Virus record (IMG/VR): IMGVR_UViG_3300021430_000595
From: a virus
Strand: one strand, 5' to 3'
Length of the DNA stretch: 64,000 nt
Shown: positions 17,209-27,519 of the stretch, one piece after another
Layout of the letters: each line of letters begins with the position of its first letter
Numbering within the stretch: the first letter of the stretch is position 1
The notes under the pieces: model-generated
Databases searched by the model: none
What the model was told of the DNA's origin: nothing
The model's input: only the letters and a program-made list of their open reading frames with translations
Program-made: the position numbers and the translations under genes

Positions 17209-17823
17209 TGGAGGTGGAGGGATTCGACAAATCTTGGACTATATCATCATCCTCATGGGATGTCGGACGCTAATGTGGTATTACGATAGAAGCGTCTATC
17301 ACCCACTAGTCTCTGCACCTTCCTGTTCCTACCAGGCTTGGCTCAGGGTTGTCTTATAAAAAGGTTTTCCCTGAATTCATCCGATTTTCGACACACCTCT
17401 CGATGTGAAGGGGCTCGAGTTAACCCTCGTCTTGCTCGCCATACCATAAATGGACTACACGTTTATTCGGTTAATTCACAACCGACAAATATCAAGTTCC
17501 TATTTTGACATCGTTACTTGAAACTGTGTCGAGTTCACTTTCACTTCTTTCGAAGATTTATAGGTAGTCCTCTGAACGAAACCCTTGACACTCTAAGTGG
17601 TATCACACTATAAGGACTTCTGTTCCTAGGTTATATGTCCGTCGACCCGGGGTGACACCCAATTTGATTAGGCTGCCACTTTAGAAGTTGCAAGTAAACC
17701 TGCCACTTCCATGTTGTTGTAAACGTTGCCGTTTAGATTTTTCCACCATTTATTAAAGTCGTAGATGAAGTCCGACTACGTGCCCATGTACACTATCAAC
17801 GCCAATCAATTCCATTCACCCCC
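17209..17823 (-). ncRNA. ssrA: tmRNA interrupted by a group I intron; tag frame 17730..17668 encodes GNVYNNMEVAGLLATSKVAA*
   Basis: Acceptor GGGGGTG/CACCTCC-A with G3.U70; spliced T-arm GAGGG-TTCGAAT-CCCTC; tag ends AA*; smpB nearby. Confidence 0.92.
17228..17422 (-). mobile_element. Group I intron (195 nt, no ORF) in tmRNA T-loop
   Basis: P AATTCAGGGAA, Q AACCCTGAGCCAAG, R CAGAGACTA, S GATATAGTCC; 5' exon ends U, intron ends G. Confidence 0.9.
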
Positions 17824-17874: not shown

Positions 17875-18603
17875 TTAAATTTCATCATCAATATATGTTA
17901 CTGTAAATATACCGTTTTCTTCCTTTAAATCAAATACTAACGGTTTATGTATTGGTTGATATCTTTCAGTGCAAGTTGATGCGTTTACGAATACCGTGTC
18001 TTTAATATAAGCAACACCATATGCACCATGTATATGTCCAAAAATGTGCATTAAAGGTTTAATCACATCAACACGTTCTCTTAATAATTCACAACCAACT
18101 TGTAATGTTCCTGCCCTATCATCCACAAAATCTCTGATACCGTGTGGTGGACCGTGTGTAATTAAAATGTCAGTATCATTTGGAATTTCATCCCACTTTT
18201 CTTTCAATACAATACCGTTTCTTGGTAGATTAAATGCCCAATTGAAAAACTCAGGTTGCCAAGGTGAACCATATATTTTAATCGGTCTTGAAAATTCATT
18301 ACTGATAATTTCAATACTTCCATCCTCAAGATATGTGACATTATGTTCCAACAATATGTTGGGGTCAATATATGAATTTAACCAAGCCGGTTCTTGTTCA
18401 AATGCAAAATCATGATTACCGGCAATAAAGATTTTATATTTAAAACCGTCAATCCCTTTAAACCATTCAATAAAACCTCTAACATCATTTTCTCTACCTA
18501 CATTGGTGCAATCACCAGCATGAATTAAAACATCACCTTCAGGTAATGTATGTGTCATCCCATTATGTAATGAATGGGTATCGGAAATACATACTATTCT
18601 CAT
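17875..18603 (-). CDS. Calcineurin-like metallophosphoesterase
   Basis: ISDTH, HAGD, AGNHD, THGPP, GHIH. Confidence 0.9.
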   Translation of the reverse strand: MRIVCISDTHSLHNGMTHTLPEGDVLIHAGDCTNVGRENDVRGFIEWFKGIDGFKYKIFIAGNHDFAFEQEPAWLNSYIDPNILLEHNVTYLEDGSIEIISNEFSRPIKIYGSPWQPEFFNWAFNLPRNGIVLKEKWDEIPNDTDILITHGPPHGIRDFVDDRAGTLQVGCELLRERVDVIKPLMHIFGHIHGAYGVAYIKDTVFVNASTCTERYQPIHKPLVFDLKEENGIFTVTYIDDEI

Positions 18604-18721
18604 AATATTAAATATAGATATTTTTTTTCAAAAAAAGAAGAGGTTAGTTTAACTAACCCCTTCTCAGGACAACCGGATTAACGGTTCAGCTCCACCACTT
18701 GGTTTTTCAAAACCAAGAAAA

Positions 18722-19168
18722 TTATTTCACATCCAAAAGTTTAGAAATTGCTTCTAACTCCATTTCTGCTTTTAACTCAGGTGTGATAATTGCATTTAAA
18801 CGAGCTTCGATTTCCGCAAGTTCTTTACGTTTTTCTTGGATTGAAATTTGATTTACACGAGTTTGGAAATCGTCTTTCCATTCTTCAACAGTAAACCCTA
18901 ACCATGTGAATTTGTAATCCACACCAAGTTCATTAGCTGCACTCTCTGATTTATCTTTTCTTTCCATCAAGAAAGCGTACATCTCAACCAATTTACGAAC
19001 ATCAGTAACCGTTGCGATTTGTGTTCTGTCATGTGCTGAGTTGGCTGAATAACCAAAGTTACCACTTGTTTTCCAACAAGGTCTCTCTGCTTTTTCAATT
19101 GCTAATTTTTTCTCTTGTACTAAGTCAAATAACTGTTTAACTTTAGCATCTGTTGTTTTTGTTGCCAT
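18722..19168 (-). CDS. Hypothetical coiled-coil protein
   Basis: 148-aa ORF followed by hairpins and terminator. Confidence 0.65.
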   Translation of the reverse strand: MATKTTDAKVKQLFDLVQEKKLAIEKAERPCWKTSGNFGYSANSAHDRTQIATVTDVRKLVEMYAFLMERKDKSESAANELGVDYKFTWLGFTVEEWKDDFQTRVNQISIQEKRKELAEIEARLNAIITPELKAEMELEAISKLLDVK

Positions 19169-19202: not shown

Positions 19203-19838
19203 TTATTCTTTTAATCTTCCTCTATACCACCCATTGGGTATTTCAGAATCTTTTTTTACTTTTTTATTTTCAATACCATTTGTTATCCAAATTGTACCAA
19301 ACTGTGAATTTTTTTCACCTTGATTTTTAGGTTTAGACATTTTTTGTTTTGATTCTTCTTTATGTTTTTTACCTAACCAGTGTTGGTTTCCTTTTCCTGA
19401 TTCACTTAATTTTTTAGATAGTCGACTTTTCCATTCTTGATTATTTTTATATAACCATTTAAGTTTTTCAGTCCCTTTAATACTATTTATTTTAGCATTT
19501 TCTTTTGCCTTTTGAAAAAAAAATATCCTATGTTCTTCAGATGAAAACCCACCTTCACCGCCTTGTTTAATATTTAAACACATTGAATCTTTCAAAATAT
19601 TTTCATTTACTAACTCTTTTTCTCTATCTTTTAAAGAACGTCTATCAGGTAAAAATTCTAAAATTTCACATTTAAAATTTTCTTTACCATATTTCTTGAT
19701 TGAGTACCATAATCTTTTTCCACTCCCCACATAACCATCGTTTAAATTATCTGTGGAATGCATTCCTATGTAATATTTTCCATTTATAAGATTTATCGTT
19801 TTATAAATGTAATGATAATTCTTTTGTTTTCTTCCCAT
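19203..19838 (-). CDS. GIY-YIG (Seg-like) homing endonuclease with NUMOD3-like motif
   Basis: YIYKTINLINGKYYIGMH, YVGSG, GKKHKEESKQKMS; start moved to ATG 19838. Confidence 0.85.
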   Translation of the reverse strand: MGRKQKNYHYIYKTINLINGKYYIGMHSTDNLNDGYVGSGKRLWYSIKKYGKENFKCEILEFLPDRRSLKDREKELVNENILKDSMCLNIKQGGEGGFSSEEHRIFFFQKAKENAKINSIKGTEKLKWLYKNNQEWKSRLSKKLSESGKGNQHWLGKKHKEESKQKMSKPKNQGEKNSQFGTIWITNGIENKKVKKDSEIPNGWYRGRLKE

Positions 19839-19875
19839 ATTAATAAATATGGGAAGATGGTACAAAAGTTCAAGG

Positions 19876-19998
19876 TGGGGAGGGTGGGATTCGAACTCCA
19901 CGACCACGAGGTTAACAGCCTTAGAAGTAACTAAGCTTATAGCCGTATGTACAGAAATTAAACCAGTAATACGTGCTCTACCACTGAGCTACCTCCCC
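19876..19998 (-). tRNA. tRNA-Asn(GTT)-like gene with a 50-nt structured insertion (19922..19971) in the anticodon stem
   Basis: Acceptor GGGGAGG/CCTCCCC, D-arm GCTC/GAGC, CG[insert]AGG-CTGTTAA-CCTCG, TTCGAAT T-loop. Confidence 0.8.
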
Positions 19999-20003
19999 GA
20001 GTA

Positions 20004-20599
20004 TACCGGAAAATGAGCGAGTGAGTTTTCATTTTTGGATTGAATTTTAGAAGTAACTCAACTCGTAGCCGGTAAAAGATTTTAAGATGGTAATTATTTG
20101 TCTAAAATAAAATCCCTTTTGAGGATTCTATAGGATTCGAACCTATTATAACCATAGAAGTAAGACAAAATGTAGCCATCAAATATTTTAATATTCAAAG
20201 AACTAAAGTAAATGGAAATCGTGTCAGTGATGTTTCAGTAAAAGTGAAGTTTAGAAGTAACTGAACACATAGCCATTAAGTTTTTTAAAGTGGAAAGTCC
20301 ATAACTAATTGATGTTTTCGGAATCATAGAAGTAAGTTACATGGATAGCCACCCAATAAGGTGGACGGAAAGAGTATGAGTAATAAACATCCAATTGTTG
20401 ATAGAAGTAACTACATACATAGCCGTCAAATGAGTTTATGTGGAGATTGTGTGTCTAACGTTGTATCTGATAGTTGTATGTTAGAAGTAAGACCCTTGCA
20501 CCGATACTTTTGTCAATTCTAAGACCCAAAACAGAACCACTCCGTGGTTTAGTGTGATGGGTGGTAGACTATCCTCTCGGTGACTCACATAGCCACATA
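20004..20599 (-). ncRNA. Array of six related stem-loop RNAs: 20004-20074, 20086-20180, 20211-20277, 20290-20352, 20364-20427, 20437-20599
   Basis: Each has a closing helix, GGCTA, bulged helix, invariant TTACTTCTA and variable distal domain; helices covary. Confidence 0.85.
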
Positions 20600-20629
20600 T
20601 AATATTTTCAAAGAACTTAATGGGTGATG

Positions 20630-22702
20630 TTACACACCCATTAATTTTCCTGTTTCTTCATAAGAGTAACAGAAGTCCTCGTACTTGAAGAATGTGTCAA
20701 CATTCTCGTCAAGAGTAACTTGTTTACCACGACCTTCTACGTGTAGAAGAACAAGGTCATACACACTTACTTTCGGTAACTCAGCGTATTGTTGAATTGC
20801 TTTAAGAGTGTTTTTAAAGTCACTTCTTGCGGTTACGAAACCATCAGAATCAATATCCAACATGATGTACTCCTTAGTCACCAAATCAATAATCGCGATT
20901 AACGTATTAGTTGATTTAGATTCCAATGATTGACAATTTGAAATTGTCTCAGGTAACCATGTTTTGTTTGACTCAGGATGTTCTCTCTCCATGATACCGA
21001 AAGATGTTTCAAGTGTATCCAAACCACGACCATTGAAGTTTCTCACGTCAATAACTGCATATTTGTAACCATTCTTCAACGCATCTTGGATATCGATGTC
21101 GATATACTCAGCACAAGGTCCTTTTCTGTGTCTCACATCACCTGAGTGAACCGATTTACCAACTCTCAAGTTACTGAAAGAAAGTACATCACTTCTTTTC
21201 TCACCAACAAAGGTAACACTCAAATCTAAGTCTTCAGAACCTCTTTCGTCCATCCAATGAACAAACGGTCTGATTACTTTTGCATCAGGGTTGTCAAGTG
21301 GAACTCTTTGACCTCTGATTGTAGGTTTAGTCGAGAAGTTCATACTTCTCATGTTGGTTGGTAGAGGTATTTTTTTCAATTCCTCATCAATCCAACAGTT
21401 ACCCAATGATTCCAATACTGAAAACTTTTCTCTAAGAGTTTCAAACAACTTAGAGTGGATAGTTTCAACAATTTGTTTTGGAATTGCTGGTAGGTTAGGT
21501 AACTCGGTACGTTTTCTCGCCCCTTTAATCATAATTGACCTATTTGTTTTAGGTTCAGTACGACCTTCAAAGTGTGAGTAAACTTCAAACAATACTTTGT
21601 TTGATGTACCTTTTACCGCCTCACCGAAGTACTTCATGATAAGTTCAATATCTTTTGGATATGTACGAACCAACCAATCAATTCTACGTGAGAATTCACC
21701 CGGTTTTTGAGATAAAACTCTCAAACCATTCTCCAAACCTTTTTTGAATGATTCATTAAGTAAACCATACCAAGAAGTAACCTTCTCGTTACGAATCTTA
21801 TTGAACGCCACATAAGATTTAGGGAATTGATTTTTATATTCACCCGGGTGTAAAATTTCACCCAAACGAACCCATCTTTGGTCTCTTAAAACCATTTCAC
21901 GAGCATCACAGTTGGTTTGTTCAAGTAAACCTAAAATGTATTTTCTTTCTTTACGAGAGAATTTTTTGAATTTGAATTTCTCTCTTTCAGGATTCGTACT
22001 TGTACGAGATGACCATCTGTTCATCCTAACTTCTTTTTGAGGGACTTTAGGTAAAGAGATATCACCACCTGAAAGGTGAACTGCAATTCTCAACACATCG
22101 GTTGTGGTTTTAACAGGTAATCCTTCGATACCCATTGCAGCCAATGTACACAAGTTTTCTTTGAATGGAATTGATTCCGGGAAAACAAGTTTATCACCAC
22201 TGTTCACAAACCATTTAACAATCTCAAGGTCTTGAGGTGTTAATGATGTGTTGATTGACACCAAATCAGTGAAGATTTTTGAGAATCTTTCTGATGTACC
22301 ATACTTAATCAAATTGTATTTGATTTTCTCGAACTTAATGTCCTTTTCGTATGTGTGGGTTGATGGTTCCCATTGACCGTTACTCCAATAGTGCATGATT
22401 GCGTTCATGTACAACTCAAAGTCCGACATCACCATAACTTCTTGTGGGAAGTTTTTATATAATGGTTGGTAATTGCGTTTTCCACCCATTACATTTTTCA
22501 AATGATTCAGAACTTCGTCATTGAAGTTTTGGATAAACGATAAATCTGATTTGGATAATTCGAAGAAGGCATCTTCGTCTAACATGTATCCCCATTGCAT
22601 TAAGTGGGATTGTACTGTTGCTACCGCGATTCTATTGTCCATACCATCGTTTGGAGGACAAACTAAACCTTTTTGGAAGGCTACCAAGTTTCTTGTTGTC
22701 AT
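20630..22702 (-). CDS. 690-aa protein with helical N-region and C-terminal TerD-like domain
   Basis: FVHW..DLDLS..HSGD..AEYIDID resembles TerD fold; own promoter TACCTTTG at 22740-22747. Confidence 0.65.
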   Translation of the reverse strand: MTTRNLVAFQKGLVCPPNDGMDNRIAVATVQSHLMQWGYMLDEDAFFELSKSDLSFIQNFNDEVLNHLKNVMGGKRNYQPLYKNFPQEVMVMSDFELYMNAIMHYWSNGQWEPSTHTYEKDIKFEKIKYNLIKYGTSERFSKIFTDLVSINTSLTPQDLEIVKWFVNSGDKLVFPESIPFKENLCTLAAMGIEGLPVKTTTDVLRIAVHLSGGDISLPKVPQKEVRMNRWSSRTSTNPEREKFKFKKFSRKERKYILGLLEQTNCDAREMVLRDQRWVRLGEILHPGEYKNQFPKSYVAFNKIRNEKVTSWYGLLNESFKKGLENGLRVLSQKPGEFSRRIDWLVRTYPKDIELIMKYFGEAVKGTSNKVLFEVYSHFEGRTEPKTNRSIMIKGARKRTELPNLPAIPKQIVETIHSKLFETLREKFSVLESLGNCWIDEELKKIPLPTNMRSMNFSTKPTIRGQRVPLDNPDAKVIRPFVHWMDERGSEDLDLSVTFVGEKRSDVLSFSNLRVGKSVHSGDVRHRKGPCAEYIDIDIQDALKNGYKYAVIDVRNFNGRGLDTLETSFGIMEREHPESNKTWLPETISNCQSLESKSTNTLIAIIDLVTKEYIMLDIDSDGFVTARSDFKNTLKAIQQYAELPKVSVYDLVLLHVEGRGKQVTLDENVDTFFKYEDFCYSYEETGKLMGV

Positions 22703-27427: not shown

Positions 27428-27435
27428 ATTTTTTG

Positions 27436-27519
27436 CTGACACGGTAGGATTCGAACCTACGATGTGGTTACCCAGTCAGGTTAACAGCCTGATGCTCTCG
27501 GCCTCTAAGCGACGTGTCA
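27436..27519 (-). tRNA. tRNA-Asn(GTT) with long variable arm
   Basis: TCAGG-CTGTTAA-CCTGA, G73, about 15-nt variable region. Confidence 0.85.

What the first reader, a model, noticed from the sequence alone, without database searches (positions are those of the whole stretch)
19876..22702. Array of seven covarying Y-RNA-like stem-loops directly downstream of a helical/TerD-like protein: candidate new ribonucleoprotein system
Seen: on the minus strand, starting about 30 nt after the stop of the 690-aa gene, six tandem units (20599-20437, 20427-20364, 20352-20290, 20277-20211, 20180-20086, 20074-20004) share one architecture. It is a closing helix ending GG/CC, an internal loop CUA opposite about NUUU, an 8-9 bp helix with a 5'-strand bulge, invariant U-UACUUCUA, a variable distal domain, then UY-A. 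Helix sequences differ between copies but stay paired (GUGUUCAGU/ACUGACAC; GAGUUGAGU/ACUCGCUC; UCCAUGUAACU/AGUUAUGGA; GUAUGUAGU/ACUCAUAC), so structure and loops are conserved rather than a DNA repeat. BoxA-like GTTCTTTG motifs at 20609 and 20196 match those heading the tRNA blocks. Known: bacterial Ro60 (TROVE) genes sit beside Y RNAs made of a bulged protein-binding helix plus a variable, sometimes tRNA-like, module. Inference: the 690-aa protein binds the constant module and the variable domains act as interchangeable adaptors or decoys, possibly in RNA repair or anti-defence.
Basis: partly seen in the sequence, partly recalled or inferred. Interest (0 to 1): 0.93.

Follow-up and report, generated by a model that had tools for sequence, protein, structure and literature searches.

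The report
Phage protein with partner small RNAs
A large phage encodes an unstudied 690-residue protein followed by seven small folded RNAs that share one conserved "handle" (one of them built into a complete tRNA); the same protein-RNA pair recurs in distant phages and many bacteria, so it is probably an undescribed RNA-protein particle on the plan of Ro60 with its Y RNAs.

Summary
On the minus strand, 19922-20600, seven units carry an exact UUACUUCUA in one architecture: closing stem ending GG/CC, internal loop CUA opposite NNUUU, and a bulged 8-9 bp helix. My covariance model finds them only here in the 64 kb window. The helices covary (97-99% paired against 35-57% in slid controls).

The RNA family travels with the 690-aa gene. 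All 188 model hits lie on the gene's strand, in close phages, in phages with 30-50% protein identity, and in bacterial chromosomes of several phyla. In 41 Variovorax genomes the RNA and the protein occur in the same six genomes.

Unit 7 is a circularly permuted handle inserted between nt 28 and 29 of a tRNA-Asn body. A distant phage has the same design in a tRNA-Arg body.

Nothing matched in Rfam 15 or in the papers I could search. RNA binding and function are inferred, not shown. Other agents of this scan noted the same pair on other DNA in at least 29 genomes. Verdict: a real, widespread, apparently undescribed ribonucleoprotein candidate.

The parts
20630..22702 (-). Gene of the 690-aa protein: helical-repeat N-terminal part (about residues 1-460) and a C-terminal TerD-fold domain (about 473-636)
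20617..20644 (-). Hairpin spanning the stop codon of the 690-aa gene, followed by GTTCTTTG (20609-20616)
   Evidence: Terminator-like scan; motif search.
20437..20599 (-). Unit 1: handle with an extra arm of about 92 nt growing out of the bulge position
   Evidence: Consensus fold of 11 orthologues: 19 of 33 pairs keep pairing through changes on both sides. Partial R1 hit at 20444-20501.
20364..20427 (-). Unit 2: simple handle; tip contains AAUUGGAUG
   Evidence: R1 67.1 bits; fold.
20288..20354 (-). Unit 3: simple handle
   Evidence: R1 55.5 bits; fold.
20211..20277 (-). Unit 4: simple handle
   Evidence: R1 73.2 bits; fold.
20086..20180 (-). Unit 5: handle whose tip holds a tRNA T-arm (GGUUCGAAUCC) and a loop-closed acceptor-like hairpin; preceded by GTTCTTTG at 20196-20203
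   Evidence: R1 45.2 bits; fold. The same unit type occurs in L002, L005, L010, L013, L016 and L021.
20004..20074 (-). Unit 6: simple handle
   Evidence: R1 64.4 bits; fold.
19876..19998 (-). Unit 7: complete tRNA-Asn(GUU) body with a 50-nt circularly permuted handle (19922-19971) inserted between nt 28 and 29 of the anticodon stem
   Evidence: Rfam tRNA 41.2 bits with a 63-nt gap in the anticodon arm. Removing 19922-19971 leaves the arm CGAGG-CUGUUAA-CCUCG (read). RNAfold of the isolated insert gives the permuted handle. Homologous chimeras in L005, L016, L014 and L051.
19203..19847 (-). GIY-YIG/NUMOD3 homing-endonuclease gene (probable ATG near 19847), inserted between the RNAs and the 148-aa gene; not part of the conserved system
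   Evidence: Pfam NUMOD3 and GIY-YIG, phrog_314. Sits elsewhere or is absent in most relatives.
18722..19168 (-). 148-aa protein (phrog_2574, unknown function), a clade-specific third gene of the operon
   Evidence: Follows the array in all close relatives and in L049, L051, L067 and L102; not found in the bacterial loci. No PDB, Pfam, NCBIfam or PADLOC match.
18635..18665 (-). Strong intrinsic terminator that closes the minus-strand unit
   Evidence: 14-bp stem followed by a T run.

Best explanation
The locus most likely encodes a ribonucleoprotein. The 690-aa protein has a helical-repeat body and a C-terminal TerD domain. I infer that it binds the constant "handle" of each small RNA. The handle is a closing stem ending GG/CC, an asymmetric internal loop (CUA opposite NNUUU), a bulged 8-9 bp helix, and the single-stranded UU(A/C)CUUCU. 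I infer that the RNAs are stable, trans-acting molecules cut from the operon transcript. Their variable tips differ. Some are simple loops. Unit 1 has a 92-nt arm. Unit 5 has a T-arm with a closed acceptor stem. Unit 7 is a whole tRNA-Asn body. I infer that these tips act as exchangeable modules that couple the protein to tRNA-recognising factors or to tRNA-like substrates, as Y RNAs do for Ro60. Shown here: the RNA fold, its covariation, the strict genetic linkage and co-occurrence, the TerD fold, and the promoter-terminator framing of the bacterial RNA genes. Inferred: binding, processing and the tRNA-directed function.
For: RNA family and structure:
- 97.3% of cells paired against 35-51% in slid controls.
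-, independent bacterial set: 98.8% against 45-57%.

Linkage:
- 57 + 83 + 48 model hits all lie on the gene's strand and next to the gene. They come from close phages, phages at 30-50% protein identity, and bacterial chromosomes.
- Five whole bacterial genomes have hits only beside the gene.
- Variovorax: the RNA is in 6 of 41 genomes and the protein in the same 6.
- Burkholderiales sample: the only strong RNA hit is in the one genome with the protein; one weak hit (22.9 bits) is in a genome without it.
- In bacteria the RNA has a -10 box just upstream and a terminator just downstream.

tRNA connection:
- T-arm units.
- Permuted handle at nt 28/29 of a tRNA-Asn body and of a tRNA-Arg body.

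Protein:
- TerD fold.
- Three Ro60 structures fall in the top 14 of 48,161 chains with 250-270 aligned residues, where other hits align about 90.
Against: - No binding or expression data exist.
- In about a quarter of distant phage loci no unit lies within 4 kb of the gene. In two of those records units lie 5-10 kb away.
- In bacteria the layout RNA, then terminator, then start codon also fits a cis-acting leader.
- Two bacterial neighbourhoods showed no RNA-repair genes.
Confidence: 0.6

Rival explanations
1. The handle is a cis-acting leader. The protein, or another factor, binds it in its own mRNA to control termination or translation, so the element is autoregulatory rather than a trans-acting partner RNA.
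For: In bacterial loci the RNA lies directly upstream of the gene on the same strand. A terminator follows it, and the start codon comes 20-60 nt later, so the gene must be read through that terminator.
Against: In the window and its relatives, 2-8 different units lie downstream of the gene. In some phages they lie 5-10 kb away. Some are built into tRNA bodies. Several bacteria have two copies. The two roles are not exclusive.
Confidence: 0.15
2. The units are decoys or sponges that act without the 690-aa protein, for example as mimics that soak up a host tRNA-targeting nuclease or an RNA-binding defence factor.
For: The phage is rich in tRNA genes. Tips include tRNA-like parts and whole tRNA bodies with intact Asn(GUU) and Arg(UCU) anticodon loops.
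Against: This does not explain the strict co-occurrence with the protein in bacterial chromosomes. It also does not explain an invariant handle that is not tRNA-like.
Confidence: 0.1
3. The constant module is a small intron-like or mobile RNA element that inserts into tRNAs, and the array consists of free copies of it.
For: Removing the 50-nt insert restores a perfect tRNA-Asn arm. The same 28/29 site is used in a tRNA-Arg body of a distant phage. A homing-endonuclease gene lies next to it.
Against: There is no group I or II core and no Rfam ribozyme match. Most units are free-standing, with their own closing stem. Other chimeras replace the anticodon loop altogether (L102, L067, L004). Relatives keep a normal tRNA-Asn as well.
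Confidence: 0.05
4. The units are self-cleaving ribozymes or mere processing signals of the RNA-gene operon.
For: They form a tandem array of structured units with conserved single-stranded nucleotides.
Against: No known ribozyme family matches, even at E up to 10. Single copies occur beside the gene in bacteria, with their own promoter and terminator.
Confidence: 0.03

Closest known systems
Ro60 (Rsr; TROVE + vWA) with Y RNAs, especially bacterial and phage YrlA/YrlB (Chen et al. 2014, PMC4201824; PDB 1yvp, 2nvo, 9l5y)
   Same: The protein gene sits beside one to several small structured RNAs on the same strand. Each RNA consists of a bulged-helix protein handle plus a variable module, which in some copies mimics tRNA (T-arm and closed acceptor stem). 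The protein is a helical-repeat body followed by a metal-binding C-terminal domain. Ro60 structures are the best and longest structural alignments of the N-terminal part.
   Different: There is no TROVE signal by Pfam or hhalign. A TerD domain stands in place of vWA/MIDAS. The handle is GGCUAY ... UU(A/C)CUUCU, not the GNCGAA/GGUCCGA motif (PMC4201824). No Rfam Y RNA or YrlA match. No D-arm in the tRNA-like unit. Most bacterial copies have no tRNA-like part. Whole tRNA bodies carry a permuted handle. Three of five genomes with this family also have a canonical Ro60 elsewhere.
TerD family (tellurite-resistance proteins; PDB 2qz7, 2kxt, 3ibz)
   Same: The C-terminal domain has the TerD beta-sandwich and keeps SGD and E/D motifs at the aligned calcium-site positions.
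   Different: Known TerD proteins are stand-alone proteins of about 190 aa in ter operons. Here the domain is fused to a helical part of about 460 aa and is linked to RNAs.
NCBIfam NF041916, MXAN_6230/SCO0854 family RING domain-containing protein
   Same: Residues 307-674 match profile positions 385-769 at E 2e-71, so this named bacterial family is homologous over the rear helical part and the TerD domain.
   Different: The score of 241 bits is far below the 600-bit cut-off. The N-terminal RING part is absent here. I found no paper on that family.

Membership tests
Ro60/TROVE protein family | TROVE domain detectable by sequence (Pfam PF05731) | tested here: not met
   No Pfam hit for the query or for any of the 54 family members. 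hhalign of the family against a 30-sequence Ro60 alignment: probability 1%. Control: genuine Ro60 proteins in the same bacterial genomes score well.
Ro60/TROVE protein family | Ring-shaped helical-repeat fold like Ro60 | tested here: inconclusive
Ro60/TROVE protein family | C-terminal vWA domain with MIDAS site | tested here: not met
   The C-terminal domain has a TerD fold.
Y RNA / YrlA (Rfam RF00019, RF02553) | Match to the Rfam covariance models | tested here: not met
   Over 19700-20700 at E up to 10, only tRNA and chance miRNA/snoRNA matches appear.
Y RNA / YrlA | Ro-binding motif GNCGAAN0-1G (bacteria) or GGUCCGA (vertebrates) near the 5' end | tested here: not met
   Motifs as given in PMC4201824. 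The units begin with a stem followed by GGCUAY.
Y RNA / YrlA | tRNA-like domain (T-arm, closed acceptor stem, D-arm) in at least one RNA per locus | tested here: inconclusive
   Unit 5 has a T-arm and a closed hairpin but no D-arm. Unit 7 has a full tRNA body in a different topology. Bacterial units lack any tRNA-like part.
Y RNA / YrlA | Encoded next to the partner protein gene, on the same strand | tested here: met
TerD domain family | TerD beta-sandwich fold with conserved acidic metal-site motifs | tested here: met
tRNA (unit 7) | Cloverleaf with a 7-nt anticodon loop | tested here: inconclusive
   Acceptor stem, D-arm and T-arm are present (Rfam 41 bits). The anticodon arm is normal only if the 50-nt insert bulges out or is removed. 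The T-stem has one bulged base. The unconstrained minimum-energy fold is not a cloverleaf.

The most novel reading that the evidence does not exclude
The pair is a ribonucleoprotein class of its own, not a Ro60 offshoot. In this reading the protein reads the GGCUA/UU(A/C)CUUCU handle. The RNAs include genuine tRNA bodies (Asn GUU, Arg UCU) that display intact anticodon loops. The particle would then sense, shield or repair tRNAs that are attacked during phage-host conflict.
Probability: 0.3. Interest if true: 0.9.

Novelty: new variant of a known kind. Interest (0 to 1): 0.8.

Why it matters
The protein family is large: about 2,400 clusters at 50% identity. It occurs in jumbo phages and in Firmicutes, Proteobacteria, Cyanobacteria-related lineages, Armatimonadota and others. 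Even so, neither the protein nor its RNA partner has a described function, and the RNA is absent from Rfam.

If binding is confirmed, this would be a second widespread Ro60/Y-RNA-like system. It would come with natural tRNA-handle chimeras that point directly at tRNA biology. The handle is short, highly conserved and modular, so the system is readily testable by pull-down, EMSA and structure determination.

Tried and rejected
- **Rfam.** Gathering thresholds on the whole window and E up to 10 on the array gave only tRNA.
- **GenBank phages by blastn.** No match.
- **Pfam and PADLOC for the 690-aa protein.** Nothing.
- **Profile HMM against PDB.** Only TerD.
- **hhalign against Ro60.** No signal.
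- **Foldseek against PDB.** Whole model: TerD only. N-terminal part: generic helical repeats only.
- **ESM Atlas.** Unnamed clusters only.
- **The search for related loci.** Single distant proteins, and the 54-sequence alignment, failed. A 20-sequence alignment worked.
- **Whole-genome search with the phage-derived model R1 in Bacillaceae.** It missed even the known Priestia copy, so it was uninformative. The bacterial model R2 replaced it.
- **Anticodon-loop mimic.** I considered UUACUUCUA as a mimic (CU-UCU-AA), but no closing pair fits.
- **Handle 5' strand pairing with the anticodon loop of unit 7.** I considered this, but the permuted-handle fold explains all five chimeras better.
- **Papers.** Searches for TROVE + TerD + phage, SCO0854/MXAN_6230 and Ro60 + bacteriophage found no description of this system. 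Burroughs & Aravind 2016 (NAR 44:8525) is not held and could not be checked.
- **RNA-repair neighbours.** None seen in the two bacterial loci I annotated.

Full report
**Setting**

The window comes from a large phage. It holds 27 tRNA genes, including a CUA suppressor, and a group I intron. Close relatives lie on viral contigs of 45-310 kb. No whole genome is held for the window.

The relevant genes are on the minus strand, in this order:
- the 690-aa ORF, 20630-22702;
- about 700 nt without an ORF;
- a tRNA-like gene, 19876-19998;
- a GIY-YIG/NUMOD3 homing-endonuclease gene;
- a 148-aa ORF, 18722-19168;
- a strong terminator, 18665-18635.

- Seven exact UUACUUCUA lie on the minus strand between 19922 and 20490. 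Six are preceded by GGCUA and 7-14 nt, where none is expected by chance.
UUACUUCUA and a variable tip follow.
- I built covariance model R1 from 36 simple units of the window and of related loci. It hits units 2-6 at 45-73 bits and unit 1 partly. It hits nothing else in the 64 kb.
- On 55 distinct units from the window and 14 close loci, 97.3% of cells pair, against 35-51% when partners are slid. Ten of 12 pairs change on both sides. That alignment is fitted to the model, so the slid control is the fairer yardstick.
- Unit 1 carries a 92-nt arm at the bulge position. The arm itself covaries: 19 of 33 pairs.
- GTTCTTTG precedes units 1 and 5, the tmRNA and three tRNA blocks. Seven of its eight copies are on the minus strand. 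It may be a promoter element or a boxA-like element; I did not resolve which.

**Linkage to the protein**

- All 23 close loci (75-96% protein identity) have 2-7 units right after the gene.
- I searched 40 loci that include much more distant relatives, down to about 30% protein identity. Thirty have units at E of about 0.01 or better. All 83 hits at E up to 1 lie on the gene's strand, directly upstream or downstream of the gene.
- Ten of those loci had none within 4 kb, even with filters off. In two of these records units lie 5-10 kb away on the same strand.
- The family also sits in true bacterial chromosomes: Priestia, Paenibacillus, Saccharibacillus, Laceyella, Intestinibacter, Variovorax, Achromobacter, Chitinimonas, Lysobacter, Obscuribacterales and Armatimonadota.
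- Of 37 such loci, 29 have a unit at E below 0.01. All 48 hits at E up to 1 are on the gene's strand, mostly just upstream.
- The bacterial units form an independent set with 98.8% paired cells against 45-57% slid. Their consensus is GGCUAU ... CUUCCUUCU ... GCUYUCC.
- Model R2, built from the bacterial units, hits five whole genomes of 3-7 Mb only at the sites beside the gene. These sites were in its training set, so what counts is the absence of other hits.
- In a sample of 41 Variovorax genomes the RNA is in six and the protein in the same six, adjacent and on one strand. By my arithmetic, exact overlap has a chance of 1 in 4,496,388 if genomes are treated as independent, which relatives are not.
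- In 101 Burkholderiales genomes the only strong RNA hit is in the one genome with the protein.
- In bacteria each RNA has a -10 box a few bases upstream and an intrinsic terminator right after it. The start codon follows 20-60 nt later.

**The protein**

- AlphaFold2 gives a confident model, pLDDT 92.5.
- I therefore call the Ro60 likeness a lead, not a result.
- Three of five bacterial genomes with the family also encode a canonical TROVE + vWA Ro60 elsewhere. The two are therefore not simple replacements for one another.
- NCBIfam relates the rear half of the protein to the unstudied MXAN_6230/SCO0854 RING family.

**tRNA connections, the part specific to this window**

- Unit 5 carries a T-arm and a loop-closed acceptor-like hairpin. 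Relatives have the same unit type.
- Unit 7 is a complete tRNA-Asn(GUU) body: acceptor stem, D-arm, and a T-arm with one bulged base. It carries 50 extra nucleotides between positions 28 and 29.
- The insert is a circularly permuted handle. Read 5' to 3' it is the 3' helix strand (ACUGGUUU), AAUUU, a capped closing stem (CUGU-ACAU-ACGG), CUAU, the 5' helix strand with its bulge (AAGCU-U-AGU), and UACUUCUA. The tRNA thus takes the place of the variable tip.
- RNAfold of the isolated inserts of the window, L005, L016, L014 and L051 recovers this fold unaided.
- L051 (48% protein identity) has the same design at the same 28/29 site in a tRNA-Arg(UCU) body.
- Other chimeras (L004, L011, L102, L067) replace the anticodon loop with part of a handle.
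- The unconstrained minimum-energy fold of the whole chimera is not a cloverleaf: -38.3 against -26.0 kcal/mol for my model. The in vivo fold is therefore open.

**Mechanism**

Most likely (0.6), the protein binds the handle and the tips act as exchangeable modules, several of them tRNA-shaped. They would link the particle to tRNA-recognising factors or substrates, as Y RNAs do for Ro60 (PMC4201824). Binding, processing and purpose are inferred.

The main rival (0.15) is a cis-acting autoregulatory leader. It fits the bacterial layout but not the phage arrays or the chimeras. Both roles could coexist.

**Novelty**

I found no Rfam family, no PADLOC model and no paper describing this pair. One relevant review is not held and could not be read. 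Earlier notes of this scan report the same pair on other DNA in at least 29 genomes. I reproduced their core claims independently. I did not see the RNA-repair neighbours that one note mentions in the two bacterial loci I annotated.

Noticed in passing
window 27435-27519 (-): The other tRNA with anticodon GUU (Asn) is 85 nt long and has a 15-nt variable arm, a class II shape that is unusual for Asn. Relatives have a normal 73-nt tRNA-Asn.
   Followed up: partly
window 17875-18603 (-): The calcineurin-like metallophosphoesterase after the operon's terminator matches the PADLOC candidate defence model PDC-S10 at E 1e-79. It follows the 148-aa gene in most close relatives.
   Followed up: partly
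window 17218-17432 (-): Group I intron (Rfam 68.7 bits). Relatives have tmRNA genes at the same relative position.
   Followed up: no
window 612, 17831, 20196, 20609, 29134, 30457, 31841 (-): GTTCTTTG sits 10-20 nt ahead of blocks of RNA genes (tmRNA, tRNAs, the array). It may be a promoter -7-like element or a boxA-like element shared by the phage's RNA genes.
   Followed up: partly
variable tips of units, e.g. window 20380-20395; L055, L056, L073, L076, L085: A UGG-containing motif (AAUUGGA, AAUGGA, UGGUUA) recurs in the tips of otherwise unrelated units. It also appears in the capping loop region of the tRNA chimeras (UGGUUUAAUU). Its meaning is unknown, and I ran no statistical test.
   Followed up: no
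window 19203-19847 (-): A free-standing GIY-YIG/NUMOD3 homing-endonuclease gene lies between the tRNA chimera and the 148-aa gene. In relatives it is absent or sits elsewhere, which suggests a recent insertion.
   Followed up: partly
L084-L101 (gut phage contigs of 230-380 kb): This subgroup has about 30% protein identity. The gene is followed by a terminator and has no unit within 4 kb. Whether units lie elsewhere in these records could not be checked, because the record was not held.
   Followed up: partly
Variovorax genome G146, contig 56, 29662-31730: The homologue is split into two overlapping frames (a frameshift or a sequencing error), yet the upstream RNA is intact.
   Followed up: no
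L156 3928-5826 (Achromobacter deleyi): A YicC-like endoribonuclease gene lies directly upstream of the RNA-protein pair. This was seen in one genome only and may be coincidence.
   Followed up: no
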